Part shown: piece after piece, positions 48,428 through 64,000 of the stretch | How positions within the stretch are numbered: position 1 is the stretch's first letter | How the letters are laid out: each line of letters starts with the position of its first letter | Source of the DNA: an uncultured Pirellulales bacterium | Lineage (GTDB): Bacteria; Planctomycetota; Phycisphaerae; Sedimentisphaerales; Anaerohalosphaeraceae | Length of the DNA: 64,000 nucleotides | NCBI GenBank assembly: GCA_964635075.1 | Contig: CAZWMN010000009.1 | Span: forward strand, 7,269 to 71,268 | Direction of reading: 5' to 3' | Translations under genes and position numbers: made by a program | The notes under the pieces: model-generated | Database searches by the model: none | Seen by the model: the letters and a program-made list of their open reading frames with translations, nothing else | What the model was told of the DNA's origin: nothing

Positions 48428-48850
48428 CTACGCCAGCTTATACGCAATTTGCTCGTCTAAAATATCTTTGACCGTCAGCGCGATAATACTCTTGCCCGTC
48501 TTCTTGAAAAACGCCCCTATCTCGCTCATCGCGTCCGACGAAAAATCAAACGACACAAAAAATCCCTTCGTCCGGTCTTCACGCATCATCGCCGCCTCGA
48601 ATGCGTCAATATCCGGCCGCCCCACCTTCTCCTTCTGCTTGACCTGGATCGGATACCACACGTCCATAAACTCCAATTCCCCCTCTTTCCGCTTCGGCGC
48701 CGCCGACACCGGGTAAATCCGCCCATCGATCCCCATATCCCCCACCTGCGCCTTATTCGGTATTCCCCCAATCGCAATCACCGCCCAGTTCTCAAACTCG
48801 AACGGCGGAAGCTCACGCAGCTTGTCCATTGACCACGGCAAATCACGCAC
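48428..48850 (-). CDS. Mrr-cat/PD-(D/E)xK restriction-endonuclease-domain protein, possibly the C-terminal remnant of a methyltransferase-nuclease fusion
   Basis: The FEFENWAV...GDMGIDG...IQVKQ pattern matches the nuclease module found at the C-terminus of some N6/N4 DNA methyltransferases. Confidence 0.55.
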   Translation of the reverse strand: MRDLPWSMDKLRELPPFEFENWAVIAIGGIPNKAQVGDMGIDGRIYPVSAAPKRKEGELEFMDVWYPIQVKQKEKVGRPDIDAFEAAMMREDRTKGFFVSFDFSSDAMSEIGAFFKKTGKSIIALTVKDILDEQIAYKLA

Positions 48851-48856
48851 CCCATA

Positions 48857-48962
48857 AGCTCTCCCCCTGTAAAGGGGGAGTACCGCGAATAAGCCAACCC
48901 AAGCTCTCCCCCTGCAAAGGGGGAGTACCGCGAAGCGGGGAGGGGGTATTATTCATCCCGCC
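48857..48962. repeat. agctctccccctgcaaagggggagtaccgcgaa... repeats (one partial and one full copy)
   Basis: Partial copy at 48857-48889 and full 62-bp copy at 48901-48962. The same 62-bp unit recurs at 49364-49424. Confidence 0.85.
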
Positions 48963-49348
48963 TAAGGCGTTCCTCTTTTCTCCTGCCATCCAAAATGTTT
49001 TCGTATCTGATTCAGCACTTCTTGGGGATTATCGAATACCCAGTGATTCACAAACCGCAGCACCAAAACACCATATTGTTTTAGAAACAAATCCCGTTCC
49101 CGGTCATATTCAATCGCCTCGGCATTAAAATGCGGAGCGCCATCCAGTTCTATTGCCAGCCGTTCCGCCGGACAGTAAAAATCAAGAATATAGCCGCCAA
49201 AGCTGTGCTGTCGTTTAAACCGCCTGCCGTCAAGCTGTTTACTTTTCAAATAGCTCCACATCTTCGCTTCAGCCGGTGTCAACGCGTTTCGCAATTCTCG
49301 TCGAAACGTTTTCATCTCTGGATGATTATTCAAACATTGCTTGTCCAT
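48962..49348 (-). CDS. DUF559 (Vsr-like) endonuclease-domain protein
   Basis: LTPAEAKMWSYLK...RFKRQHSFGGYILDFYCPAERLAIELDG...D..RD..L...G..VLRF, the diagnostic DUF559 pattern. Start taken at MDKQC. Confidence 0.8.
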   Translation of the reverse strand: MDKQCLNNHPEMKTFRRELRNALTPAEAKMWSYLKSKQLDGRRFKRQHSFGGYILDFYCPAERLAIELDGAPHFNAEAIEYDRERDLFLKQYGVLVLRFVNHWVFDNPQEVLNQIRKHFGWQEKRGTP

Positions 49349-49363
49349 AATCTCTCTCAAATT

Positions 49364-49424
49364 AGCTCTCCCCCTGCAAAGGGGGAGTACGGCGAAGCCG
49401 GGAGGGGGTGTCATTCATCCCGCC
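49364..49424. repeat. 62-bp direct repeat partner flanking the DUF559 gene
   Basis: agctctccccctgcaaagggggagtacggcgaagccgggagggggtgtcattcatcccgcc matches 48901-48962. Confidence 0.85.
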
Positions 49425-49483
49425 AAAAGTGAACCTCACTTTCTAGATCCATCCAAAACAATATCATATTCTTTCGAAATTGC

Positions 49484-50257
49484 TTACAATCCCTCGAAGC
49501 CACATCGCAGACGATGTCGTTGCAAAAACTCTGGTTTTGGTAAATGTTCAATGGGTTTCCTAAACTGTTTGGTATTGTTTAATAAAACTATAATAAACTG
49601 ACTTGCGCGAGGATATTTCTTCAAAATCGTAAGATCATCTGAAAGAGATAAATATCCCTTTTCAAATAACGCATCATGAAATTTACAAAGGCACATGATA
49701 TTCGACAAGAAACCCCGACACTCCGCATCCTCTGCCCAACCTACAACGTGACTGGTCACCAATAAGGAAACATCATTCACATCACATAAGGCGCATGTTG
49801 AAGAATAATTTATTAGTGTTAACTCCCTGAGCCTATCCTGCCCTCGTCGTCTACGTGATATGGCAAGTTCATCTCCAGTGTCGATGCATCCAATTCGCAG
49901 ACGGTTTGCTTTTACTAAAGAATCAATCCCTTCATCAGTTCCTTCGAAAGTCTCAATATCTACAATATCTACGGATGTTCGTATCTTCTCCCTGCCCTTA
50001 GACGTAATGTGCCATACACGGCGAGCCTTCTCGACATATCCTAATTTTACCATATATCTATTTACCACTTCACGCAAACTTGCGCGTCCTTGTTCAGAAA
50101 GTTGTTGACCTATACGCTTCTCCATGGCTTGATAAATGTCAGCCATTTTCGCGTCTCCCCCATTGTTTTCGATTGCATGAAGAACTACAGGAACTTGATC
50201 TTGCCGGGAAAACCCGGCTTCCGATGCAGTTACTCCATATTGTTGTGTTGGGCTCAT
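49484..50257 (-). CDS. HNH_2-type endonuclease with N-terminal winged-helix (Mrr_N-like) domain
   Basis: CALCDV...LLVTSHVVGW...NIMCLCKFHDALFEKGYL fits the PF13391-type HNH. The N-terminal region resembles Mrr N-terminal wHTH. Confidence 0.65.
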   Translation of the reverse strand: MSPTQQYGVTASEAGFSRQDQVPVVLHAIENNGGDAKMADIYQAMEKRIGQQLSEQGRASLREVVNRYMVKLGYVEKARRVWHITSKGREKIRTSVDIVDIETFEGTDEGIDSLVKANRLRIGCIDTGDELAISRRRRGQDRLRELTLINYSSTCALCDVNDVSLLVTSHVVGWAEDAECRGFLSNIMCLCKFHDALFEKGYLSLSDDLTILKKYPRASQFIIVLLNNTKQFRKPIEHLPKPEFLQRHRLRCGFEGL

Positions 50258-50274
50258 GTTTCAACCTTTTTGTG

Positions 50275-50403
50275 TTAAGTTTTTGCACGATTGCGGTTGC
50301 TGTTAAACGGCGGGTCAATATAAATCAAATCCACGCACTCGCCCGGCAGCTTCTTCAATTGTTCCAGATTATCCCCGCAATACACCACCCGCGTATCAAC
50401 CAC
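50275..50403 (-). pseudogene. N-terminal stub of a beta-class N6/N4 DNA methyltransferase
   Basis: VYCGDNLEQLKKLPGECVDLIYIDPPFNS carries motif IV (DPPF). It is followed by a stop after 9 more codons, so the rest of the methyltransferase is missing. Confidence 0.55.
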
Positions 50404-50590
50404 CGCCGACGGCTTGCCCGTATGTAGCACAGTCTCCTGTAGCACAGCCGCCCCCGGCTGTGATATTTCCGATGAAATAGGAGCCGTCTGATGTAGGGGC
50501 AGACCCCCGTGTCTGCCCGAATGGGCCTTTTGCCCTTTAACTTTTGCCTTTTTTTCTACTGCCTTCTTCTTCGCCATTTTGTATTCCCTT

Positions 50591-50614
50591 GTCATTCTGG
50601 ATTTAATCCAGAAC
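50591..50614. repeat. short palindromic repeat, ATTC-N-GAAT family variant
   Basis: gtcattctggatttaatccagaac. Confidence 0.7.
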
Positions 50615-50899: not shown

Positions 50900-53125
50900 T
50901 TAAGCGTTTTCTTGAGGGCGATAATGTACACTTAAAATACTATATGGATATTCATTTCTATCAATATTGACACCTATTATCAAACAACTATGTACATGGC
51001 TCTTAGAGAATATATTATCTGCAAGATTATTCATGTAATTATATCGGTTCTCTTTATTTGCCTCTCGGTATGCTACTAATGCTACCGCCTCATCCCTCCA
51101 ATTAGCTGGCAAGCAAACCGCTGAGTTTATATGCTCAGGTGTCTGCCAATTCTTCTTGACATGTTTCTTTATTGACTTGAAATTTTTAGTTATATTTAGT
51201 TGGTCATCAGGGCTTATATTGAGAAGCATAACAGATGCTTCCAACCAGCTATGGGGTGCTACTTGCTCAATTCTTCTTCGTATATCAGACCACCACTTAG
51301 TTATTCTCAAGCTTGGCTTCTTAATGTGTTCGTCCCGCGCTAATGCGATATAATAATCATCGATATCTTTCGATATTCCTGTAAGCATCAACCTAGTCTT
51401 GCCAATTTCAACGTCTCCAATATTCAATCCTGTCTCGAGATATAGTCCAAGTAAATCTAATTCGTCCCCATGATATATGGCTTTCCCTTCAAGTTCAGTC
51501 CGACGCATTAGATAGTGAATTATTTCACTGCTGGTAAGCAAATCAAATATAACTTGTAAATCTGCCAATAATATCGTTGGTGCAACCGGTAAACAGTCAA
51601 TTAGCCACCCTGTTTTTTTGATTTGCATGATATTGGTTTGTATTGTTGCAAACTGTTCCAATGTGACAGAAAGTCGAATATATTTATGAATGTTATTAAT
51701 GTTAAAGGGCAATTGTTTGCCAAGAGCATCTTCGCTATGGATAGTTTTAAACTTCTTAATCCTTTCAAATAGACGATACGATTGATTTGAAGGTTCAATT
51801 ACAAGCTCTTCAATATGTTGCTTTACTCTTTTTGGCGCACCTCTTAAAGCAGGCTTAGAGATTCTTCCAGATTTTGCTTCGATGAATATAAGATAAGAAT
51901 CTATTTGGACTATAAGATCGTTTTCATATTGTATTCCCGACTCAACCCATTTGAAATTCTTTATTATTTTGCTCTTTGGAAAGGTTTTCTGGAAAAGCTC
52001 ATATATTTCTTCTTCTAAGAACTGTGCCCTGCGAGTATTGATTTTCTTTCTAGCCTCTTCGTTATCAACTATCAAACCGTCCATTATCTCAAAAATATAA
52101 CTAAAAAATACTTGGGGTATAGAACTGAAGTATTTACTGTCTGAAAGTTTCACAAAAGGCCTTGTCCAGACCGGATTGTCCATGAAAACATGTTCTCTGT
52201 CTGCATTTTTTAAGTCGCCAGGTTGAATGCTTAACTTCGTCAATATTCCATCAAGAATTCTTTTGTCTAATTTACATCTTAATGCAAGCTCTTTTGTCGA
52301 ATATGTGAAAAAGTCGGGAAGCCGAAGGTCAGAGTAACTCAAAATGAGTTGAAGAACACCTTCTAAGGGCATTTTCTTTACTTTAATAAATTCAATAAGT
52401 CTTTGTGGGGAATCTTTCATGCTTGGAAATATTTCATAATACTTTTTTACAACATTTTCAATTTCTTTCTCCTTGAATACTAAATGTAAACGATTCCGAT
52501 ATTCATTTACTTTGATTTCCATATCAGAAATCAACGTTTTAATTAATTCAATGATATTTGTTGCAGTTATACCATGTTGTTTTTCATATAGAGAGTCAAG
52601 CGGGGCATACATTTTTGTTGCGGTATCTATCACTTGTCTATAATGTCCCCAATTACGTACATATTGTGTATTCTGTCTTATATTTTCTTGTAAAGATAAA
52701 ACGGCTTTTTCTTGTTTCGTATTCGCTTGTTGTATTTGAACTAATCTTTTTTGAGAAAAAGAGGTTGATACTTTAATTAAAGAATCCCATATATCTTGGA
52801 TAAACTGTGGTTGTGCTGGAGTATATGATATTTTATCTTTTGGAAGACCTAATAAAAGTGCCTGTGCTATTTCTACATGTGCTTGAGTAAGCGGTTGAGC
52901 ATCGCCTTTCTTCCTTTTTTCTTCTTCGTTTACACCCCTAAATAGACCATATAAAGATAATACTGATAATAAATGTAACGGATCATAAGAGCTAAATAAA
53001 TTCAATAAGTGACCTAAAGTATCTGCGAATTCTTTTTCATAATCAAGGCCTGATTTTATCAAACTGTCCCTAAAGACTTCTTTCGGTACATCTTTAAATG
53101 GATTATCGTATTTATAAAACTTCAA
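50900..53125 (-). CDS. 741-aa uncharacterised protein with central PD-(D/E)xK/NERD-like motif
   Basis: Long, strongly AT-rich ORF with a TTG start and aaggtg SD. The core YENDLIVQIDSYLIFIEAKSGRI fits D...(D/E)xK. No P-loop and no TM segment. Confidence 0.75.
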   Translation of the reverse strand: MKFYKYDNPFKDVPKEVFRDSLIKSGLDYEKEFADTLGHLLNLFSSYDPLHLLSVLSLYGLFRGVNEEEKRKKGDAQPLTQAHVEIAQALLLGLPKDKISYTPAQPQFIQDIWDSLIKVSTSFSQKRLVQIQQANTKQEKAVLSLQENIRQNTQYVRNWGHYRQVIDTATKMYAPLDSLYEKQHGITATNIIELIKTLISDMEIKVNEYRNRLHLVFKEKEIENVVKKYYEIFPSMKDSPQRLIEFIKVKKMPLEGVLQLILSYSDLRLPDFFTYSTKELALRCKLDKRILDGILTKLSIQPGDLKNADREHVFMDNPVWTRPFVKLSDSKYFSSIPQVFFSYIFEIMDGLIVDNEEARKKINTRRAQFLEEEIYELFQKTFPKSKIIKNFKWVESGIQYENDLIVQIDSYLIFIEAKSGRISKPALRGAPKRVKQHIEELVIEPSNQSYRLFERIKKFKTIHSEDALGKQLPFNINNIHKYIRLSVTLEQFATIQTNIMQIKKTGWLIDCLPVAPTILLADLQVIFDLLTSSEIIHYLMRRTELEGKAIYHGDELDLLGLYLETGLNIGDVEIGKTRLMLTGISKDIDDYYIALARDEHIKKPSLRITKWWSDIRRRIEQVAPHSWLEASVMLLNISPDDQLNITKNFKSIKKHVKKNWQTPEHINSAVCLPANWRDEAVALVAYREANKENRYNYMNNLADNIFSKSHVHSCLIIGVNIDRNEYPYSILSVHYRPQENA

Positions 53126-53259
53126 ATTGACACCTTCGAATCTTTAATTTTACATAAGGAAGGGAAATTTCCCGCACCCAATTTTCTCTGTTTTTTCTTG
53201 TCTCACCATAGCTTCAGCGACGGCGGACTTGTCCTTCGTAGCCTTGTGCGAAGAAGGAT

Positions 53260-54380
53260 CGCCCAATTTTTCTTTTTATTTTTCTTGTCCGACTCGTCCC
53301 ACATGTCCGACCTGTCCGAAAAGTCCGACTTTTACTTTTTTCCCTTGCGCCACCGACGATGATTTTCCCGCACACCTTTCGCCCATATTATACCCTATTT
53401 CTCTCTTTTTCAAACCCCCTTTTTCCCACTTTTGCCGTCTCGCTCGGACCGGCGGGCGGATGATTTCTCGCAGCATAACTATGGCTTAGCCACTTTTGGG
53501 CGGCTGATAAGCCGCAAGGAGGGAGATCGGTCTATTTTCAGCTTTCCGCTGCCGCGATAGCGGTATGGAACAATTTCTGCGGACAGCATAGAAGCTCGCT
53601 TCGAGAATGGCCGCGGGAATTGGGCTAAAGACGATTCGCAGAATCGCTGCGGAAAGCTCTCTGTGCCGCCCTGAGTCCTCTGAGGCAAAAAAATCCGTGA
53701 AAATCCGTGTTAATCCGTGGTTTATGTTATTTCGACACAAGTGCGATTGCACAATCTTGCTATCTCTAAAAATTCCATAAATTTTCTTCTCATTGTCTCA
53801 CAAGCACTTACGTTTCGCGTTAGCGTCCCGGCGCGCCGGGGTTCGACACGAACACGCAACTCCGCCCTATATAGGAGGCGCCTCTTTTGCGCCCCAGAAA
53901 GGAGCATGACATGTCACAGTGATTTCATCAACCGCGGCTTGTCCGCTCAATGCGATTGAATAATCATTAATCATTTATCACTAATCATTTGATAGCGCAG
54001 CGATGCCGCGCGCACCCACTACAAAACAGGTTTTAAAATGCTGTCAAAAGTGAGTCAAAATATGACAAAAAAAGCCAATTCAAACCGACTTGTCGCGACA
54101 AGTCGTCCCGAATCCCCTTTATGGGGTGAGGGACCTGATGATCTCAGTCGTCGGCTCTGCCGACTCCATACTTTCTTGTCCCGCCATAGCCTTGGCGACG
54201 GCGGATGCCATTTTCTTTTTCCCTTTTTACTTATCTCTGTGCAATCTGTGGAATCTGTGGTTCCGTCTGTTTTTACCAAACAAACCCAATTTTTTCACGA
54301 CCAAATATGCGTTATCAATATCAAAAACGCAGAAATGAAGGCCAAAAACCGACCCAAAAAAACGAAACGAACCCAATTAT
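53260..54380. repeat. left arm of about 1.1-kb imperfect inverted repeat (noncoding, modular)
   Basis: Blocks in the order a-f mirror blocks at 57615-58660. Examples are gatgccgcgcgcacccactacaaaacaggttttaaaatgctgtcaaaagtgagtcaaaatatgacaaaaaaagccaattcaaacc and ...ttccgcagcgattctgcgaatc.... Confidence 0.8.
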
Positions 54381-54388
54381 GGATAACT

Positions 54389-54652
54389 TTACTTGTATCC
54401 TTCGACGTGATTTTGGGTATATTTTTCTATCGCTTTTTCCAGGTCCACATCGTTGACATTGGCTAATGTACACAGCCAAGCCAAGACATCGGCGAATTCT
54501 TCTTCTTTGTTTTTGTGGTCGTCACCGGTCAATGCCGTCGCCAACTCGCCGACTTCTTCGACAAACCACATAAACGTCGCCGCGGTACCGCGCTCGCGGT
54601 CACGCTTGCCGTATTTTTTATCGATAAAATTTTGAAATTCGCGCAGTTCCAT
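54389..54652 (-). CDS. MazG-like nucleotide pyrophosphohydrolase (small, single domain)
   Basis: EEVGELATAL and EEFADVLAWLCTLA metal-binding helices. Start taken at MELREFQ. Confidence 0.7.
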   Translation of the reverse strand: MELREFQNFIDKKYGKRDRERGTAATFMWFVEEVGELATALTGDDHKNKEEEFADVLAWLCTLANVNDVDLEKAIEKYTQNHVEGYK

Positions 54653-57614: not shown

Positions 57615-58660
57615 TTCCTTTGGGCAAAATTGGGTTCGTTTCGTTTTTTTGGGTCGGTTTTTGGCCTCCATTTCCGCGTTTTTGATATTGATAACGCATA
57701 TTTGGTCGTGAAAAAATTGGGTTCGTTTTTTTTGAATAAACGAGAGACCAGAGATAAGAGATCAAGACCACGGTCAAACAATCCTTCGGCATTGCTCAGG
57801 ACAAGGTTTGGCCGTGCCACCCACCCCTTCAGGTCGTTGGGTTCGATTGGGTTTGAATTGGCTTTTTTTGTCATATTTTGACTCACTTTTGACACGTTTT
57901 TAAAATCTGTTTTGCAGTGGGTGCGCGCGGCATCTATGAGATGCTCTGCGAGAAGCCAGAAGCCAGTAGTCTGAAGTCAGAATATGGTCGGCCTGCGGCC
58001 GGGCTGATCTTACACAGTACTATGACACGTCAAACTCCTTCAAAATAGTTTTTAGTTTTGAGTTTCTGGATTCCCGCCTGTGCGGGAATGACAGCACCAC
58101 AAGACGCAACCTATGCGTCTCCTATATGGGGCGGACTTGCACGGCGGTGTCGAAAATTCGTGATTTTTCGGGGGCAGAAAAGCCGTAAGTCGTTATCGGA
58201 TAGAGAGTTAAAAATTTTTAGAATTTTCAGGAATAGCAGGATAGTGCAATCGCTATTAGAACCGAGCGAATAGTTGATAGTGAATAGAAAAAGAGGATTT
58301 TAGACGGGATTTACAGGATAAACAAGATTTTTTGCCACCGAGGGCGCAGAGCGGCACAGAGAGCTTTCCGCAGCGATTCTGCGAATCTTCTTTGGCTCCA
58401 TTTCCGCGGCTTTACTCCAAACGAGTTTGTCTGTCAGCCCCAAAAACGGTTCCATCCCGCTGTCGGATTCGGCAGGCTCACCACAGGCGCGGCAGCGGAA
58501 AGCGGAAAATTGTATATTGATAATCCCTTGGGGATAAATTGTAGATTGTAAAATGTAGAGGAAGATTGTATAATTTAGGGGAAATCGGTTTTTGGCATAT
58601 TTAAGAATCATCTTTGATCAGCAGGGCGAAAGAAAAAAGTTAAAAGAAAATTGGGCGAGA
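57615..58660. repeat. right arm of about 1.1-kb imperfect inverted repeat
   Basis: Reverse-complement blocks of 53260-54380 in mirrored order. It also contains one ATTCCC-N8-GGGAAT palindrome (58066-58092) that is absent from the left arm. Confidence 0.8.
58546..58574 (+). promoter_or_regulatory. sigma-70-type promoter candidate with extended -10
   Basis: TTGTAA, a 17-nt spacer ending in TG, then TATAAT. It lies about 175 nt upstream of the 58751 ORF. A homologous gtataat lies in the left arm (53387-53392, minus strand) facing the 741-aa gene. Confidence 0.45.
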
Positions 58661-58750
58661 AAGTATTTGGTATCTTAAATTGATTTGAGTCTCTCTGATT
58701 AAATATGTCGGGGAATTTCAATCAGGAGCAATATAGAAGGATAATCATAA

Positions 58751-59860
58751 ATGGGTCCAGCAATCCTTGTTGATAAAAGTACACTTCAATTACTTTCTGT
58801 CAGAGAAGTTTTTTATTTACGCCAATATTATAATGTAGTCTTATGTTCAACTCTATATTATGAAATTCTTGGAGATATAACAAAACATAAAGATTATGAA
58901 GCATCTAAAAAGGAAGTACTAAAGGTATCAAGGAAAATATATGGGCATTCCACCTGCTTTACAACAAAATATCAAGAAATGTTGGAAGCAGAATTAATTG
59001 GGTATGAAATTCCTATGGATAGAAGACCATTATTATCAGGTGGAAAGGAAGTTGTAGATGGTAATGGAGAAAGAGTCGTGTTGTTTGATGAACCACATGA
59101 ATATGAGGCACTCAGAAAATGGACTAGTGGGGAATTTAGCAAAGAAGAAATGTCTTGGGCTGAGGATTATAGAAAATCAATTCAGCAAATCAAATTAGAT
59201 ATTGCCAAGCTAAATTCTGAATATATGGATGCTCGCGATGCAAGCGAGCTAAAAAAATATATAGATAAATTAATAGATGACTCTGATAATCAGTTAGAGT
59301 ATTTACAATTTATATTAAAAAAAACAGGGAAAGACCAACCATTTAGAGATAAGATATGCAACATCTGGCTTAATAGGGGGATGCCTAGAATAAAAGATTT
59401 TGCTCCATATTCTTATTATTTCTTAACAGTTTCATTTGCCTTTTATTGTGGAGTAGCAAAAGATATATTTGGCACTAAAAATACAAATATTATTGACTTG
59501 GAATATATATACTATTTACCATTTTGTAGTGTATTTACTTCTAATGATAAGTTTTTAAAGACAATATCAAATATATTTCTATCTGATGATCAGGATTTTA
59601 TATGGGGAGAGGAGCTTAAAAATGATTTAAAGGCTTTCTGTGATTATTGGAATGAAAAAGGGGAAAAAGCAAGATTTAGTTATCAAGAAGAGTATGGAGG
59701 TTATCCGCCTGATATTCCAAATTCTATAACATGTAAAATATGGGGTAAATGGGCTGGAGAAAGAAGAAAAAAAGAAAAAATGACATCTGAAAGAAACCAG
59801 GAAATTATGAAAGAAATTGAACCTCTACTGGATCAATTTAAAAAGAAAGAGAAGGGGTGA
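58751..59860 (+). CDS. 369-aa uncharacterised protein, PIN-like ends with a large helical insert
   Basis: Strongly AT-rich. The N-terminus ILVDKSTLQLL...LYYEILGD and the C-proximal IIDLEYIYYLPFCSVFTSNDKF resemble the first and last acidic-residue strands of PIN nucleases. The assignment is tentative. Confidence 0.7.
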   Translation: MGPAILVDKSTLQLLSVREVFYLRQYYNVVLCSTLYYEILGDITKHKDYEASKKEVLKVSRKIYGHSTCFTTKYQEMLEAELIGYEIPMDRRPLLSGGKEVVDGNGERVVLFDEPHEYEALRKWTSGEFSKEEMSWAEDYRKSIQQIKLDIAKLNSEYMDARDASELKKYIDKLIDDSDNQLEYLQFILKKTGKDQPFRDKICNIWLNRGMPRIKDFAPYSYYFLTVSFAFYCGVAKDIFGTKNTNIIDLEYIYYLPFCSVFTSNDKFLKTISNIFLSDDQDFIWGEELKNDLKAFCDYWNEKGEKARFSYQEEYGGYPPDIPNSITCKIWGKWAGERRKKEKMTSERNQEIMKEIEPLLDQFKKKEKG

Positions 59861-59873
59861 GAGGGAGTTTTTT

Positions 59874-60461
59874 ATGAAAGAAAACATTTTATTTACCAAA
59901 TGTAAAAATAGTGCAAAACTAAAAAGTAAAATAGTATTTCCAAAAGAAATATATGATACAAAGCAGCAGCTTACTTTTTTTGATTTCAATTACGCAGATA
60001 AATACAAGCAGTTTTTGTGTGAGACATTCTATCTAAACAAAGAGGTATTTAACCATACAATGGCAGGAGTAATCATTGGTTTCGGACCAGATAATATTAA
60101 AAAGATAAGCAGTTCAGTCAAAAAGATATTGAATGAACTTAAGCGAAAGTACATATTTATTGAAGCCGGAGGGAAAACATTTATACAATGCGTTAAATAT
60201 CATACAGGTAAATATTGTGCAACAAATTCCGATGCACTCTCTATCTTAAAAAACATTATGTTAAATACAAATACTGTCGTTGTTTTCAATGAATTTTCAA
60301 AATGTAAAACAAAAGGCGACAAAAAATCTCTTATGAGATGTATTATTAAAATAGGAGACCGTAAAGAAAATCCTGTTCCTGACTTGATATTTATTGACTA
60401 TGCCAAGTTTTATTACGAATCAAAAAGTCTATTATTGCCTTATATAAGGTGCATTGTATAG
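59874..60461 (+). CDS. 195-aa uncharacterised protein, partner of the PIN-like ORF
   Basis: SD gagggag 7 nt upstream of the ATG and a 13-nt gap after the previous stop. It shares the AT-rich composition and has no recognisable motif. Confidence 0.65.
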   Translation: MKENILFTKCKNSAKLKSKIVFPKEIYDTKQQLTFFDFNYADKYKQFLCETFYLNKEVFNHTMAGVIIGFGPDNIKKISSSVKKILNELKRKYIFIEAGGKTFIQCVKYHTGKYCATNSDALSILKNIMLNTNTVVVFNEFSKCKTKGDKKSLMRCIIKIGDRKENPVPDLIFIDYAKFYYESKSLLLPYIRCIV

Positions 60462-60509
60462 ACAGGTAAGATGTACTACTAAGTTTCTCTCTTGACGAAA
60501 GGAAAAACG

Positions 60510-60860
60510 ATGCCGCCAAAATTTGTAAAGACCGTTCGAGAAGAGTTGTATTACGAGTATGCGGTAATAAAATCAAAAATCAAAGTGCAAATATCAAAAT
60601 TAAGGAAGCCTTCGGCGACTGTTTAAGCAGACCCCTCACCCGCAAGGGGATTCGGGGTGACGGGATGGGTTGACGTGAGGATTTGTCGCGATATACAAGG
60701 TTGGTGGCGGGTAAGTATCTCAAGGAATTGTTTGACCTGCATGACAGCCGGGGGACGCTGGATGTGAGCGTTGACAATCTGACGACGCTATGCCCGGCGT
60801 GCAAGAATCCGCCGGTCTGCCGGCAGTGGGAGAAGGTCAGAGAATCCCTATGGGACAAGT
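60510..60860 (+). pseudogene. fragments of an HNH endonuclease gene
   Basis: A 38-codon head (MPPKFVKTVREELYYEYAVIK) resembles the start of a common HNH family. A later frame gives LHDSRGTLDVSVDNLTTLCPACKN, a decayed HNH C-terminus. The two pieces are out of frame. Confidence 0.35.
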
Positions 60861-60920
60861 CCCTGGGGGATAAATCCCTGGGGGATAAATCCCTGGGGGA
60901 TAAATCCCTGGGGGATAAAT
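60846..60920. repeat. 15-bp tandem repeat ccctgggggataaat, four perfect copies plus one diverged
   Basis: Seen directly. Each unit contains the small palindrome ggga-taaa-tccc. A single related copy lies at about 58529-58548. Confidence 0.9.
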
Positions 60921-61016: not shown

Positions 61017-61301
61017 CTATGCTGCCATCAGGGGGGCCAGGTCGGAGCGTTTTAACGGATGGAGGCCAAGCTCACGAAGCAGGCGATTAAAGGCTGTCAA
61101 AGTCAGTTTATCCGGCGCTACAATCTCAATGCCGATAGGTCTGCCATCGCGGGTAAAATCAATCACAAACCCCGGTTCCACTCTTTTGGTTCGGCAGCTT
61201 TTGTCTTTTGGTTTGCGCGGTAAATAATAATACGCAGCCAGCGGACGACCGTGCCGAAACGTGACTTCCAAATAAGACTCATTCATTTTAAGATACCCCA
61301 C
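61017..61301 (-). CDS. DUF2283-family protein (putative antitoxin)
   Basis: YLEVTFRHG...VIDFTRDGRPIGIEI pattern typical of DUF2283. An alternative start is MNESY at 61286. Confidence 0.7.
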   Translation of the reverse strand: MGYLKMNESYLEVTFRHGRPLAAYYYLPRKPKDKSCRTKRVEPGFVIDFTRDGRPIGIEIVAPDKLTLTAFNRLLRELGLHPLKRSDLAPLMAA

Positions 61302-61554
61302 AGGGATAGGCGGTTATTATGACCAAGTGTTTCGTACTAAAATCCGGCTCTACGATAATTTCCCACATCCGTCTGCGATGCGAGGCAATGACGACCCACC
61401 GTCCTTCAACGATATCGGGCTTATAATTTTTGGGGTGTTCGAGCATTGTTCGCAAGTCCAATTCCGAAAAGCCGCGATCAAGCATTCGCTTGAATACATG
61501 CGGGCTAAGTTCCAGTTCCCAATCCCACCATTGCGGCCAACGACGGCGTATCAT
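61288..61554 (-). CDS. DUF4258-family protein (putative toxin)
   Basis: HVFKRMLDRGFSELDLRTMLE...IIVEPD...LVIITAY pattern typical of DUF4258. It overlaps the downstream DUF2283 gene. Confidence 0.7.
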   Translation of the reverse strand: MIRRRWPQWWDWELELSPHVFKRMLDRGFSELDLRTMLEHPKNYKPDIVEGRWVVIASHRRRMWEIIVEPDFSTKHLVIITAYPCGVS

Positions 61555-62183: not shown

Positions 62184-62258
<75 letters not shown>

Positions 62259-62263
62259 TTGAA

Positions 62264-62298
62264 ATTGACGATTGACGATTGACGATTGACGATTGAAT
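62264..62298. repeat. heptamer tandem repeat (attgacg)x4 plus attgaat
   Basis: Seen directly between the two tRNAs. Confidence 0.9.
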
Positions 62299-62395
62299 CC
62301 AATGGGTGAGTATCAGGCGATAACCGGGCTTGATGCGATTGATGATACGGATAAATAGTCAATAATCATTTATCAATAATCAATTGCAAGGGCCC

Positions 62396-62468
62396 GGGGA
62401 CGTAGCTCAGTTGGGAGAGCGCCGGCTTTGCAAGCCAGAGGTCGTGGGTTCGACTCCCATCGTCTCCA
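62396..62468 (+). tRNA. tRNA-Ala (anticodon UGC)
   Basis: Acceptor ggggacg/cgtctcc with the G3:U70 pair, anticodon loop ttTGCaa and T loop ttcgact. There is one C-A mismatch in the anticodon stem. Confidence 0.9.
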
Positions 62469-62536
62469 CTGCGGCGTTAGAACAAAATAAAGGCTTATGC
62501 GGTTTTGCGGCGGTATGAGCAGAACCGAGGCAATAA

Positions 62537-62549
62537 CGCTCTTTTACAA
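62537..62549 (+). promoter_or_regulatory. second boxA-like element in the tRNA-23S spacer
   Basis: cgctcttttacaa. Confidence 0.4.
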
Positions 62550-62725
62550 GTACATAGCGGATGCGATATTTTAGATTGTAAGATGGACAATCTCTCATTT
62601 TGTTTTTGAATTACCGGGTTGTTTATCTTCGCAATCTGCAATTAGCGCTTAATTATGTGCCAAACCTGTGCACGACAGATTCATCTGAATCTGTCAGCGG
62701 CGGCCAGTCAATCTTCGATTGATAT

Positions 62726-64000
62726 GGTCAAGTTACTAAGGGTGTATGGGGAATGTCTTGGTATCGAGAGGCGATGAAGGACGTGGTGGACTGCGATAAG
62801 CCCGGGGCAGGTGTCTAACAACCGTTAATCCCGGGATGTCCGAATGGGGAAACCCGTCGGGAACGGGCAACCGATTCCCGTCATCCACAGATGAATTCAT
62901 AGTCTGTGTGAAGCGAACGCAGGGAACTGAAACATCTCAGTACCTGCAGGAAAAGAAATCAACCGAGACTCCGTCAGTAGCGGCGAGCGAACGCGGACCA
63001 GCCCAAACCAAGCTTCGGCTTGGGGTTGCGGGCGCCACATCAGCAAAAGAAGAGCCAGTTGAACAGTCTGGAAAGTCTGACCACAGAAGGTGATAGTCCT
63101 GTAGGCCAAAGCCCGACTTTTGCGTGGCGTACCAGAGTAGCATGGAGCTCGTGAAACTCCGTGTGAAGCCGGGGAGCCCACTCTCCAAGGCTAAGTACTA
63201 CTCGATATCCGATAGTGAACCAGTAAGGCGACTGAACGATGAAAAGAACCCCTACTAGGGGAGTGAAAAGGACCTGAAACCATACACTTACAAGCTGTAG
63301 GAGGCCTATGTTCCGACTTGTCGGAAAATGGCTGACTGCGTGCCTTTTGCATAATGAGCCGGCGAGTTATCTTTTACGGCAAGGTTAAGCACCTCAGGTG
63401 CGGAGCCGCAGCGAAAGCGAGTCTGAACAGGGCGAACAGTCGTAGGGGATAGACGCGAAACCACGTGATCAACCCATGGCCAGGTGGAAGGGGATGTAAA
63501 AGTCCCTGGACGACCGAACCCAGGAACGTTGAAAAGTTACGGGATGAGCTGTGGGGAGGAGTAAAAGTCTAATCAAACGTGGAGATATCTCGTTCTCTCC
63601 GAAATAACTTTAGGGTTAGCCTCGAGTCATTGTCTTGCGGGGGTAGAGCTACTGATTGGAGACAGGGGTCCACCAGACTACCTACTCTTACCAAACTCCG
63701 AATACCGCAGGATGTATCTCGGGAGTCAGTCTACGGGCGATAACGTTCGTGGTCGAAAGGGAAAGAACCCGGACCGCCAGCTAAGGTCCCGGATTTTCGC
63801 CAAGTTTAGTATAAGGAAGTCCTATTGCTGTAACAATCAGGATGTTGGCTTAGAAGCAGCCACCATTTAAAAAGTGCGTAATAGCTTACTGATCGAGCAG
63901 TGGGGTGCCGATAATGAACGGGGATAAGCGAAAAACCGAAGCTGCGGGTGTTCTGGGTACTGGGTTCAATGTCTTACGAGACATTGAATCTGGTATCCGA
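62726..64000 (+). rRNA. rrl: 23S ribosomal RNA, 5' part (continues beyond window)
   Basis: Starts ggtcaagttactaagggtgtatgg...gaggcgatgaaggacgtgg. It contains gggaaccgaaacatctcagtacc-type and agtagcggcgagcgaa blocks that are colinear with bacterial 23S domain I/II. Confidence 0.95.

What the first reader, a model, noticed from the sequence alone, without database searches (positions are those of the whole stretch)
58546..60461. AT-rich two-gene cassette: PIN-like 369-aa protein plus 195-aa unknown partner (candidate novel toxin/defence pair)
The two ORFs are separated by 13 nt, the second has a strong SD, and both share a very AT-rich composition unlike the host. They are preceded by a near-consensus extended -10 promoter in the right arm.

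The first protein begins (ILVDKSTLQLL, YYEILGD) and ends (IIDLEYIYYLPFCSVFTSNDKF) like a PIN nuclease, but holds an insert of about 190 aa. The second has no motif I recognise. The layout mirrors the 741-aa gene at the other arm. It does not fit a classic VapBC pair in size or gene order.
Basis: inference. Interest (0 to 1): 0.7.

Follow-up and report, generated by a model that had tools for sequence, protein, structure and literature searches.

The report
Insert-bearing PIN-like nuclease plus stray partner
An AT-rich, horizontally acquired gene encodes a member of a large unannotated protein family that looks like a VapC-type PIN nuclease split by a 160-residue insert. The gene behind it is a rare, separately mobile add-on, not a conserved toxin–antitoxin partner.

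Summary
There are two real, co-oriented ORFs: 369 aa at 58751-59860 and 195 aa at 59874-60461. They are 13 nt apart, with a GAGGGAG Shine-Dalgarno. Their GC is 0.31 and 0.29 against 0.49 for the window. A 10/12 sigma-70-like promoter lies upstream in the right arm of an inverted repeat.

Gene 1 belongs to a large, phylogenetically scattered family: 2248 clusters at 50% identity and 255 loci in species genomes. It has no Pfam, NCBIfam, PADLOC or PHROGs model. Conserved D8, E38, D249 and D266, together with the predicted order of strands and helices, reproduce the VapC-type PIN layout with a roughly 160-aa insert. However, no sequence, profile or Foldseek comparison to PIN domains is significant.

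The pair is not conserved. None of 80 gene-1-family loci has gene 2, and their neighbours are heterogeneous. Gene 2 is very rare (8 clusters). It usually follows a different 374-aa family that carries the same four-acid pattern. In a related genome it sits, at 93.5% nucleotide identity, behind an unrelated gene. Its model resembles a P-loop ATPase core without a Walker A motif.

Verdict: this is a probable solitary PIN-like conflict nuclease joined to a swappable accessory module. It is not a classic toxin–antitoxin pair. Interest is moderate.

The parts
58546..58574 (+). Promoter-like site, TTGTAA-17-TATAAT
   Evidence: It matches 10 of 12 consensus positions and is not scored as an extended -10. 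A related 40-nt element occurs in the arm of L014 (85% identity). A 2-mismatch copy of its upstream half lies before the 23S rRNA gene.
58575..58750 (+). Putative 5' leader of gene 1, not conserved in other loci
   Evidence: Nucleotide homology to gene-1 homologues (L002-L007, L017) begins only at 58736.
58751..59860 (+). Gene 1 (369 aa), a member of a large unannotated family (family A)
   Evidence: Supported. The AlphaFold model has pLDDT 87.5 and pTM 0.83. GC is 0.311.
58751..58996 (+). Residues 1-82: proposed N-terminal half of the PIN-like core (b1 with D8, b2, helix with E38, b3, a5)
   Evidence: Secondary structure comes and conservation. hhalign pairs E38 with VapC E42, but without significance.
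58997..59479 (+). Residues 83-243: inserted beta-hairpin plus helical bundle, with invariant E117, W124, W206 and Y220
   Evidence: Supported. No similarity to any library was found.
59480..59620 (+). Residues 244-290: proposed C-terminal half of the PIN-like core (helix starting at D249, b4 VFTS, D266, a7, b5)
   Evidence: Supported. This is the only stretch that hhalign aligns with family B: E = 0.16 for the full profiles and E = 0.0067 for the C-terminal halves alone.
59621..59857 (+). Residues 291-369: C-terminal helical extension, with conserved L289-K290, PP319-320 and W331
   Evidence: Supported.
59861..59867 (+). Shine-Dalgarno GAGGGAG of gene 2, 6 nt before the ATG
   Evidence: Read directly from the sequence.
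59874..60461 (+). Gene 2 (195 aa), a rare alpha/beta protein with a P-loop-like fold and no Walker A motif
   Evidence: Supported. The model has pLDDT 79.7. Foldseek against PDB gives E = 1e-4 to 1e-3 to RecA, ORC/Cdc6, TnsC and MuB. GC is 0.286.
59851..60545 (+). Gene-2 module, shared at 93.5% nucleotide identity with L014, where a different gene lies upstream
   Evidence: blastn and alignments. The 5' junction falls in the last three codons of gene 1.
57620..58660 (.). Right inverted-repeat arm: a mosaic of repeated intergenic blocks that carries the promoter region
   Evidence: Supported.
53259..54400 (.). Left inverted-repeat arm; the AT-rich 741-aa gene (50900-53125, minus strand) lies just outside it
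   Evidence: Supported.

Best explanation
**Gene 1.** It encodes a solitary, horizontally mobile nuclease-like protein. I infer that its catalytic core is a VapC-type PIN fold, with metal-binding D8, E38, D249 and D266. A roughly 160-residue beta-hairpin and helical module is inserted between helices a5 and a6, and a helical tail follows the core.

Family members occur almost always without any conserved neighbour. The protein therefore most likely controls its own activity, with the insert and tail acting as sensor or autoinhibitor. It would act as a single-protein conflict effector, in abortive infection/defence or in addiction, and would most probably cleave RNA as VapC-like PINs do.

**Gene 2.** It is a separate, rare, AT-rich module. 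Its fold is alpha/beta and resembles a P-loop ATPase core, but it has no nucleotide-binding loop. Recombination placed it directly behind gene 1. It is probably co-transcribed and translationally coupled to gene 1. It may modulate PIN-like partners, but the family does not need it.

**Shown versus inferred.**
- Shown: gene structure, composition, family sizes, lack of co-occurrence and module boundaries.
- Inferred: PIN fold, nuclease activity, RNA target, defence role and any gene 1-gene 2 interaction.
For: **Conservation and predicted structure of gene 1**
- D8 is conserved in at least 90% of 22 divergent sequences, and E38, D249 and D266 in all of them.
- The AlphaFold model is confident (pLDDT 87.5, pTM 0.83). 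Its element order is b1(4-7), a, a, b2(28-31), a(33-44), a, b3(69-71), a(74-82), insert, a(245-253), b4(261-264), a, b5(282-285).
- From my own knowledge of PDB 3TND, this is the VapC order, with the acids in the VapC positions. The VapC sequence was verified, and the mutant entries for D7 and D98 confirm those as active-site residues.
- Matelska et al. 2017 (PMC5499597) describe the catalytic Glu on the helix after S2 as the VapC-group hallmark.

**Foldseek**
- PIN domains make up 7 of the top 50 PDB hits: VapC 6nkl, 3zvk, 9h6a, 5ecd and 5ecw, plus SMG5 and SMG6.
- These are short matches (77-91 columns, rmsd 4.3-6.7 A) and include the lowest-rmsd hits in the list.
- In the viral library the lowest-rmsd match is a PIN-domain protein (rank 6, rmsd 4.2 A).

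**Family size and spread**
- 2248 clusters at E <= 1e-3.
- 255 loci across many phyla.

**No conserved partner**
- 126 of 152 immediate neighbours are singletons.
- The most frequent Pfam families among 121 neighbours reach only 3-4 hits each: RtcB, Methylase_S, Phage_integrase and DUF3800.
- Gene 2 is absent from all 80 loci.

**Conflict and mobile context (hand-picked examples)**
- Neighbours include HsdS, a fused type I RM enzyme, Abi_alpha next to the closest homologue, AAA_15/21, E2+ThiF and NOV_C.
- The window itself carries Mrr_cat, DUF559, HNH_2 and a DUF4258/DUF2283 pair.

**Foreign composition**
- Gene GC is below flank GC by more than 0.03 in 39 of 74 loci, and above it by that margin in 4.

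**Modularity**
- Gene-1 nucleotide homology spans 58736-59853.
- Gene-2 homology spans 59851-60545.
Against: - No statistically significant similarity to any PIN family or structure was found.
- The defence-type neighbours were partly hand-picked, and many neighbours are housekeeping genes. No enrichment statistic against a background was computed.
- The tight 13-nt spacing and strong Shine-Dalgarno suggest that gene 2 is functionally coupled here.
- In 5 of 6 informative contexts gene 2 follows a protein with the four-acid pattern. It may therefore be more than a passenger.
Confidence: 0.5

Rival explanations
1. **A genuine two-component system.** Gene 2 would be a dedicated regulator or neutraliser (antitoxin-like) or a co-factor of insert-bearing PIN-like proteins, able to work with either family A or family B. 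The window would then carry a functional toxin/defence pair.
For: - The 13-nt gap and strong Shine-Dalgarno point to coupling.
- Gene 2 homologues lie 22-52 nt behind, or overlap, a 374-aa family B gene in L008-L013, L015/L016, L097 and L098.
- Family B shows the same D...E...[~220-aa insert]...D...T-x-E/D pattern.
- Gene 2 has a conserved but poorly modelled (low-pLDDT) N-terminal peptide, MKxNIxFxKxK, which could dock on a partner.
- Gene 2 has the same low GC (0.29-0.31) in every host.
Against: - 0 of 80 family A loci have gene 2.
- Family B has at least 171 clusters at 90% identity, against 8 for gene 2.
- Three other family B contexts lack gene 2.
- In L014 the 90%-identical gene 2 follows an unrelated 206-aa helical protein, with a 155-nt gap.
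- dN/dS between the window and L014 is 0.74, so constraint is weak.
- The partner is downstream and has no DNA-binding domain, unlike type II antitoxins.
Confidence: 0.25
2. **Gene 1 is not a PIN nuclease.** The acidic residues would serve another purpose, such as a different Rossmann-like hydrolase or phosphatase, or a purely structural role. The resemblance to VapC would be convergent or illusory.
For: - Every sequence and profile test is negative.
- The best whole-chain Foldseek hits are unrelated folds with E near 1.
- Rossmann-like dehydrogenases also appear among the short hits.
Against: - The four acids fall exactly on the VapC secondary-structure positions, and the S-x-D motif follows b4.
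- PIN domains are the recurrent low-rmsd local hits in two libraries.
- hhalign's only local alignment to VapC pairs E38 with the catalytic E42.
Confidence: 0.2
3. **An RM-linked guard nuclease, PrrC-like.** Family A and B proteins would be latent ribonucleases, or restriction components, that function with DNA methyltransferases or type I RM enzymes and fire when those are inhibited.
For: - HsdS or a fused type I RM enzyme lies directly upstream in L027, L042 and L086.
- An N6_N4 methyltransferase lies directly downstream of family B in L099/L100.
- By eye, a truncated methyltransferase-like N-terminus follows gene 2 in L015 (sequence; not scanned against Pfam).
- PIN-like genes coupled to type I RM operons are described in PMC5499597.
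- RtcB RNA ligase lies next to four Acidobacteriota homologues.
Against: - Only 3 of 121 immediate neighbours are Methylase_S, and 1 is N6_N4_Mtase.
- In the window no intact RM gene adjoins the cassette. The nearest RM-type genes are fragments 8-10 kb away.
Confidence: 0.1

Closest known systems
VapC-type PIN-domain ribonucleases (e.g. Shigella VapC, PDB 3TND; VapC-like group of Matelska et al. 2017, PMC5499597)
   Same: - The order of five strands and seven helices is the same.
- There is an Asp at the end of b1, a Glu on the helix after b2, an Asp at the start of the helix before b4, and an (S/T)-x-D after b4.
- Weak local Foldseek matches to PIN domains recur.
   Different: - Gene 1 is 369 aa against about 130 aa.
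- It has a roughly 160-aa insert between a5 and a6 and an 80-aa C-terminal extension.
- It has no upstream DNA-binding antitoxin and no conserved partner at all.
- It has no significant sequence or profile similarity.
PIN-like toxins transcriptionally coupled to type I RM operons, sometimes without an antitoxin (PMC5499597, section read)
   Same: - Some family A members sit directly after HsdS or a fused type I RM gene.
- No antitoxin is recognisable.
- Arrangements are not conserved between relatives.
   Different: - Those cases involve recognised Pfam PIN families, whereas this family matches none.
- The window copy is not inside an RM operon.
FEN-like and other PIN-like nucleases with large helical insertions (helical arch)
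   Same: A PIN-type core is interrupted by a large, mainly helical module that could handle the substrate (concept from PMC5499597).
   Different: - The FEN arch sits after S2/S3 and is accompanied by an H3TH element.
- Here the catalytic Glu helix is VapC-like and the insert lies later, before a6.
- No similarity to FEN structures was found.
P-loop (ASCE) NTPase cores: RecA, ORC/Cdc6, TnsC, MuB (compared with gene 2)
   Same: The predicted alpha/beta sandwich superposes on these cores with Foldseek E = 1e-4 to 1e-3, probability about 1.0 and TM 0.4-0.56.
   Different: - There is no Walker A motif. The b1-a1 loop reads GFGPDNIKK, and its glycine is not conserved.
- There are no lid or oligomerisation domains.
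- The protein is only 195 aa.
- Only 3 of 5 models agree, and the alignment holds just 8 sequences.

Membership tests
PIN domain-like superfamily (VapC-like group) | Three-layer alpha/beta/alpha fold with five parallel strands in the VapC element order | tested here: inconclusive
   The secondary-structure order of the AlphaFold model fits. Foldseek gives only weak local PIN hits: E = 1.3-4.1, TM on target 0.32-0.38, and E = 2 in the viral library.
PIN domain-like superfamily (VapC-like group) | Conserved acidic residues at the C-terminal ends of the core strands, including a Glu on the helix after S2 | tested here: met
   D8 is conserved in at least 90% of 22 sequences. E38, D249 and D266 are invariant, and S264 is near-invariant. 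Their positions relative to the predicted strands and helices fit. Spatial clustering could not be measured.
PIN domain-like superfamily (VapC-like group) | Significant sequence or profile similarity to a recognised PIN family or structure | tested here: not met
   - Pfam, NCBIfam, PADLOC and PHROGs: none.
- Insert-excised sequences against Pfam: none.
- Profiles against PDB sequences: none.
- hhalign against VapC: E = 0.76.
PIN domain-like superfamily (VapC-like group) | Divalent-metal-dependent nuclease activity | not testable with these tools
   This needs biochemistry.
Type II VapBC toxin-antitoxin module | Small PIN toxin preceded by an antitoxin gene with a DNA-binding domain | tested here: not met
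   Gene 1 is 369 aa. The only coupled gene is downstream and has an alpha/beta P-loop-like model with no DNA-binding domain.
Type II VapBC toxin-antitoxin module | Conserved co-occurrence of the two genes across genomes | tested here: not met
   0 of 80 family A loci contain a gene 2 homologue. Gene 2 elsewhere follows other genes.
P-loop NTPase (gene 2) | Walker A motif GxxxxGK[ST] between b1 and a1 | tested here: not met
   The loop reads G-F-G-P-D-N-I-K-K, and the second glycine is replaced in homologues.
P-loop NTPase (gene 2) | ASCE-type alpha/beta core fold | tested here: inconclusive
   Foldseek probability is about 1.0 and E = 1e-4 to 1e-3, but TM is only 0.4-0.56. The model rests on 8 sequences, and 2 of the 5 models failed.
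Known anti-phage defence systems (PADLOC-DB v2.0.0) | Match to a component model | tested here: not met
   No hit at E <= 1 for gene 1, gene 2 or the 741-aa protein.
PrrC-like RM-embedded latent nuclease | Gene embedded in a type I hsd operon | tested here: not met
   This is not the case in the window. It is true for a minority of family members: 3 Methylase_S among 121 neighbours.

The most novel reading that the evidence does not exclude
Families A (at least 2248 clusters) and B (at least 171 clusters at 90% identity) would be two branches of an unrecognised class of large PIN nucleases. In this class a 160-220-aa sensor module is inserted into a VapC-type core, making single-protein sensor-effector immunity or addiction genes. 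Gene 2 would be an exchangeable, degenerate P-loop-like regulator that can plug into either branch.
Probability: 0.2. Interest if true: 0.65.

Novelty: new variant of a known kind. Interest (0 to 1): 0.45.

Why it matters
**If the PIN reading is right.** A family present in thousands of sequence clusters across bacterial phyla and at least one archaeon, with no model in Pfam, NCBIfam, PADLOC or PHROGs, would be a new architectural type of PIN nuclease. It would be a VapC-like core regulated in cis by an inserted domain, not in trans by an antitoxin. That would add a candidate single-gene conflict or defence effector. It would also offer a natural system for studying how insertions gate PIN active sites.

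**The partner swap.** Gene 2 moves between two families that share only the catalytic pattern. This gives a rare handle for testing whether the two families are functionally equivalent.

**If the PIN reading is wrong.** The finding reduces to two foreign hypothetical genes in a nuclease-rich island.

Tried and rejected
**Searches that found nothing useful**
- Pfam, NCBIfam, PADLOC and PHROGs scans of gene 1, gene 2 and the 741-aa protein gave nothing above noise. The weak KH_2 (E = 0.011) and BID (E = 0.025) hits were dismissed.
- Scanning all 22 family members individually against Pfam gave only scattered noise.
- I excised the insert (residues 1-66 + linker + 243-300) for 18 members. Neither a PDB-sequence search with the resulting profile nor a Pfam scan of the 18 excised sequences one by one gave any hit, even at E <= 10.
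- The full-length profile against PDB sequences gave only a spurious METTL3 helix match.
- Foldseek of the gene 1 model against PDB and BFVD gave nothing significant.
- tblastn against plasmids gave one partial hit, to a hypothetical protein on a Granulicella plasmid.
- A metagenome scan for gene 2 added no new locus.
- The literature search found no description of this family.

**Profile comparisons that stayed marginal**
- hhalign of family A against family B gave E = 0.16 for the full profiles, 0.049 with inserts removed and 0.0067 for the C-terminal halves. This is suggestive, but not proof of homology.
- hhalign against Shigella VapC was not significant.

**Approaches abandoned**
- A regex hunt for canonical PIN proteins in the fetched loci, meant to build a PIN profile, yielded too few sequences.

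**Readings rejected**
- A classic VapBC module, on size, gene order and lack of co-occurrence.
- A prophage gene: no PHROGs or viral signal.
- A chance ORF: both have full-length homologues.
Full report
**1. Observation**

The two ORFs are as described. Gene 1 is 58751-59860 (+, 369 aa). Gene 2 is 59874-60461 (+, 195 aa from its ATG). They are 13 nt apart, with GAGGGAG at 59861-59867, 6 nt before the ATG. Their GC is 0.311 and 0.286, against 0.494 for the window.

A sigma-70-like site, TTGTAA-17-TATAAT (10 of 12), lies at 58546-58574. The scan does not class it as an extended -10. Promoter-like sites are only mildly over-represented in this AT-rich stretch: 16 against 10.2 ± 3.5 in shuffles.

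The 'arms' are real. Mosaic inverted repeats at about 53259-54400 and 57620-58660 are 80-96% complementary. They flank a MazG-like gene, an Rrf2 regulator and a MetX-MetW fusion. An AT-rich 741-aa gene (50900-53125, minus strand, GC 0.34) lies just outside the left arm.

**2. Gene 1 belongs to a large, unannotated family**

The word-indexed search found only 31 clusters. An exhaustive profile search found 2248 clusters at 50% identity with E <= 1e-3, and 954 with E <= 1e-30. A scan of one genome per species found 255 loci. These span Acidobacteriota, Bacteroidota, Patescibacteria, Planctomycetota, Omnitrophota, Poribacteria, Spirochaetota, Proteobacteria and one Asgard archaeon.

Sources call the members 'hypothetical protein'. 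No Pfam, NCBIfam, PADLOC or PHROGs model matches. One longer member (P0249) carries a C-terminal DUF5677 domain. A 2025 preprint lists DUF5677 among domains enriched near defence-linked recombinases (PMC12632615).

**3. Is gene 1 a PIN nuclease?**

Evidence for:
- Across 22 sequences down to 25% identity, E38, D249 and D266 are invariant. D8, K9, S10 and S264 are conserved in at least 90%.
- The AlphaFold model is confident (pLDDT 87.5, pTM 0.83). Its element order is b1 (4-7), two helices, b2 (28-31), helix 33-44 (carrying E38), helix 49-63, b3 (69-71), helix 74-82, then a beta-hairpin and helical bundle (83-243), helix 245-253 (starting at D249), b4 (261-264, VFTS), D266, a helix, and b5 (282-285).
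- From my knowledge of the Shigella VapC structure, this is the VapC order of five strands and seven helices, with the acids at the VapC positions D7/E42/D98/E119. The VapC sequence I used is identical to PDB 3TND, and the deposited D7 and D98 mutants mark the active site.
- Matelska et al. describe the Glu on the helix after S2 as the VapC-group feature (PMC5499597).
- Foldseek gives no significant hit. However, 7 of the top 50 PDB hits are PIN domains (five VapC entries plus SMG5 and SMG6). All are short matches (77-91 columns), and they include the lowest-rmsd hits in the list. The lowest-rmsd hit in the viral library (rank 6) is also a PIN protein.

Evidence against:
- Profiles of the full family and of an insert-excised version find nothing in the PDB sequences, and the excised sequences find nothing in Pfam.
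- hhalign against VapC gives E = 0.76. Its only local alignment does pair E38 with VapC E42.

I therefore rate the PIN-like core as probable (about 0.65-0.7), not shown.

**4. The pair is not conserved**

A gene 2 profile finds no hit in any of the 80 fetched family A loci. Immediate neighbours are heterogeneous:
- 126 of 152 are singletons by BLAST clustering.
- Among 121 neighbours scanned against Pfam, the commonest families occur only 3-4 times. They are RtcB (one acidobacterial lineage), Methylase_S, Phage_integrase and DUF3800. Many others are housekeeping enzymes.
- Hand-picked neighbours include HsdS, a fused type I RM enzyme, Abi_alpha (next to the closest genome homologue, L017), an AAA_15/21 ATPase, E2+ThiF and NOV_C.

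The context is often mobile or defence-like, but I computed no enrichment statistic. Family genes tend to be lower in GC than their flanks: 39 of 74 are lower by more than 0.03, and 4 are higher by that margin. A family this widespread with no conserved neighbour argues for a self-contained protein.

**5. Gene 2**

Gene 2 is very rare. There are 8 clusters, and the metagenome scan added none. Its upstream genes are:
- A different 374-aa family (family B, at least 171 clusters at 90% identity) in L008-L013, L015/L016, L097 and L098, with gaps of 22-52 nt or overlapping.
- Family A, only in this window.
- An unrelated 206-aa helical protein in L014.

Family B has no Pfam hit. It shows the same pattern: YLD42T, E89, an insert of about 220 aa, D319, then T335 followed by E or D.

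Profile comparison of families A and B is marginal: E = 0.16 for full profiles, 0.049 with inserts removed, and 0.0067 for the C-terminal halves. The alignment always runs through the D...P...(T/S)-x-(D/E) motif. Other family B loci lack gene 2 and instead adjoin a DNA methyltransferase, an integrase plus Tn3 transposase, or unrelated genes.

The gene 2 model (pLDDT 79.7; 3 of 5 models agree) is an alpha/beta sandwich. Its nearest structures are P-loop ASCE cores (RecA, ORC/Cdc6, TnsC, MuB, NB-ARC) at E = 1e-4 to 1e-3 and TM 0.4-0.56. The loop where Walker A should be reads GFGPDNIKK and is not conserved. The N-terminal peptide MKxNIxFxKxK is conserved but modelled with low confidence (pLDDT about 45-50).

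**6. The cassette is a composite of two modules**

- Nucleotide homology to gene 1 relatives spans 58736-59853.
- Homology to L014 is 93.5% over 59851-60545. It begins in the last three codons of gene 1 and ends 12 codons into a small downstream ORF.
- L014 carries the same arm blocks upstream, at 74-84% identity, but a different first gene.
- Gene 2 therefore travels as its own unit and has been placed behind at least three kinds of gene.
- dN/dS between the window and L014 is 0.74, from 7 synonymous and 22 non-synonymous changes.
- Gene 2 has GC 0.29-0.31 in every host.

**7. Interpretation**

Best explanation (0.5): gene 1 is a solitary, horizontally acquired, VapC-type PIN-fold nuclease. 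Its inserted domain and tail provide regulation or target recognition in cis. It most likely acts as an RNA-cleaving conflict effector. Gene 2 is a rare accessory module that is co-expressed here.

Rivals:
- A real two-component system with partner swapping between families A and B (0.25).
- Gene 1 is not a PIN nuclease at all (0.2).
- An RM-linked, PrrC-like guard nuclease (0.1). This overlaps with the best explanation.

The classic VapBC reading fails on size, gene order, partner type and co-occurrence.

**8. Novelty**

The family has no curated model, and I found no description of it. If the PIN assignment holds, it is a new architectural variant of a known superfamily.

Interest is moderate (0.45). 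The family is large, uncharacterised and testable, but its function is inferred only from motif and topology.

Noticed in passing
window 53259-54400 and 57620-58660: Mosaic inverted-repeat arms of about 1.1 kb (80-96% complementary, most similar next to the core) flank MazG-like, Rrf2 and MetX-MetW genes. AT-rich foreign genes sit immediately outside both arms. The same arm blocks precede the gene 2 module in L014, and one block occurs in L017. What the arms are is unexplained: a recombination hotspot, a repeated promoter region or an invertible segment are all possible.
   Followed up: partly
window 50900-53125 (minus strand): The 741-aa AT-rich protein (GC 0.34) has no hit in Pfam, PADLOC, NCBIfam, PHROGs or PDB sequences. 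By eye it contains a PD-(D/E)xK-like motif (IDSYLIFIEAKSG), which I did not test.
   Followed up: partly
window 48428-50595: A cluster of nuclease and RM-type genes and fragments: Mrr_cat (48428-48850), DUF559 (48962-49414), HNH_2 + Mrr_N (49484-50257), and a 106-aa ORF that looks like a truncated DNA methyltransferase N-terminus (50275-50595).
   Followed up: partly
window 61017-61554 (minus strand): An overlapping pair of small genes, DUF4258 (61288-61554) and DUF2283 (61017-61301), resembles a toxin-antitoxin-like pair.
   Followed up: no
window 62184-64000: tRNA-Ile(GAT), tRNA-Ala(TGC) and the 5' 1.2 kb of 23S rRNA are present with no 16S gene upstream, so this is an unlinked rRNA operon. 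The cassette lies about 1.7 kb from these tRNA genes.
   Followed up: partly
window 60843-60920 and 58507-58539: Five overlapping 33-nt matches at 15-nt spacing, i.e. a short tandem run of the 15-nt unit AATCCCTGGGGGATA, lie downstream of the cassette. A degenerate copy lies just upstream of the promoter-like site.
   Followed up: no
window 60511-60627 and 60683-60810: A 38-aa ORF (MPPKFVKTVREE...) shares its first 12 codons with L014. It is followed by a GC-rich palindromic element and, by eye, an HNH-like C-terminal remnant (DNLTTLCPAC). This is probably a disrupted gene. Pfam gives no hit.
   Followed up: partly
L062, L070, L074, L080 (Acidobacteriota): RtcB RNA ligase lies directly upstream, on the same strand, of the gene 1 homologue. 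This hints at an RNA damage and repair pairing, but it is confined to one lineage.
   Followed up: no
L008:3731-4816 and L010:260-1345: A 361-aa protein with a weak, sub-threshold RiboL-PSP HEPN match (E = 6e-4), and by eye several CxxC-type zinc-ribbon motifs, overlaps the start of the family B gene. It forms a possible three-gene operon (HEPN-like, family B, gene 2) beside a HepT/MNT pair.
   Followed up: no
L099:5272-6750 and L015:8709-8915: Family B is followed by a full N6_N4 DNA methyltransferase in L099/L100. In L015, after gene 2, comes a 68-aa ORF that by eye resembles the methyltransferase-like N-terminal fragment at window 50275-50595 (sequence; not scanned against Pfam).
   Followed up: no
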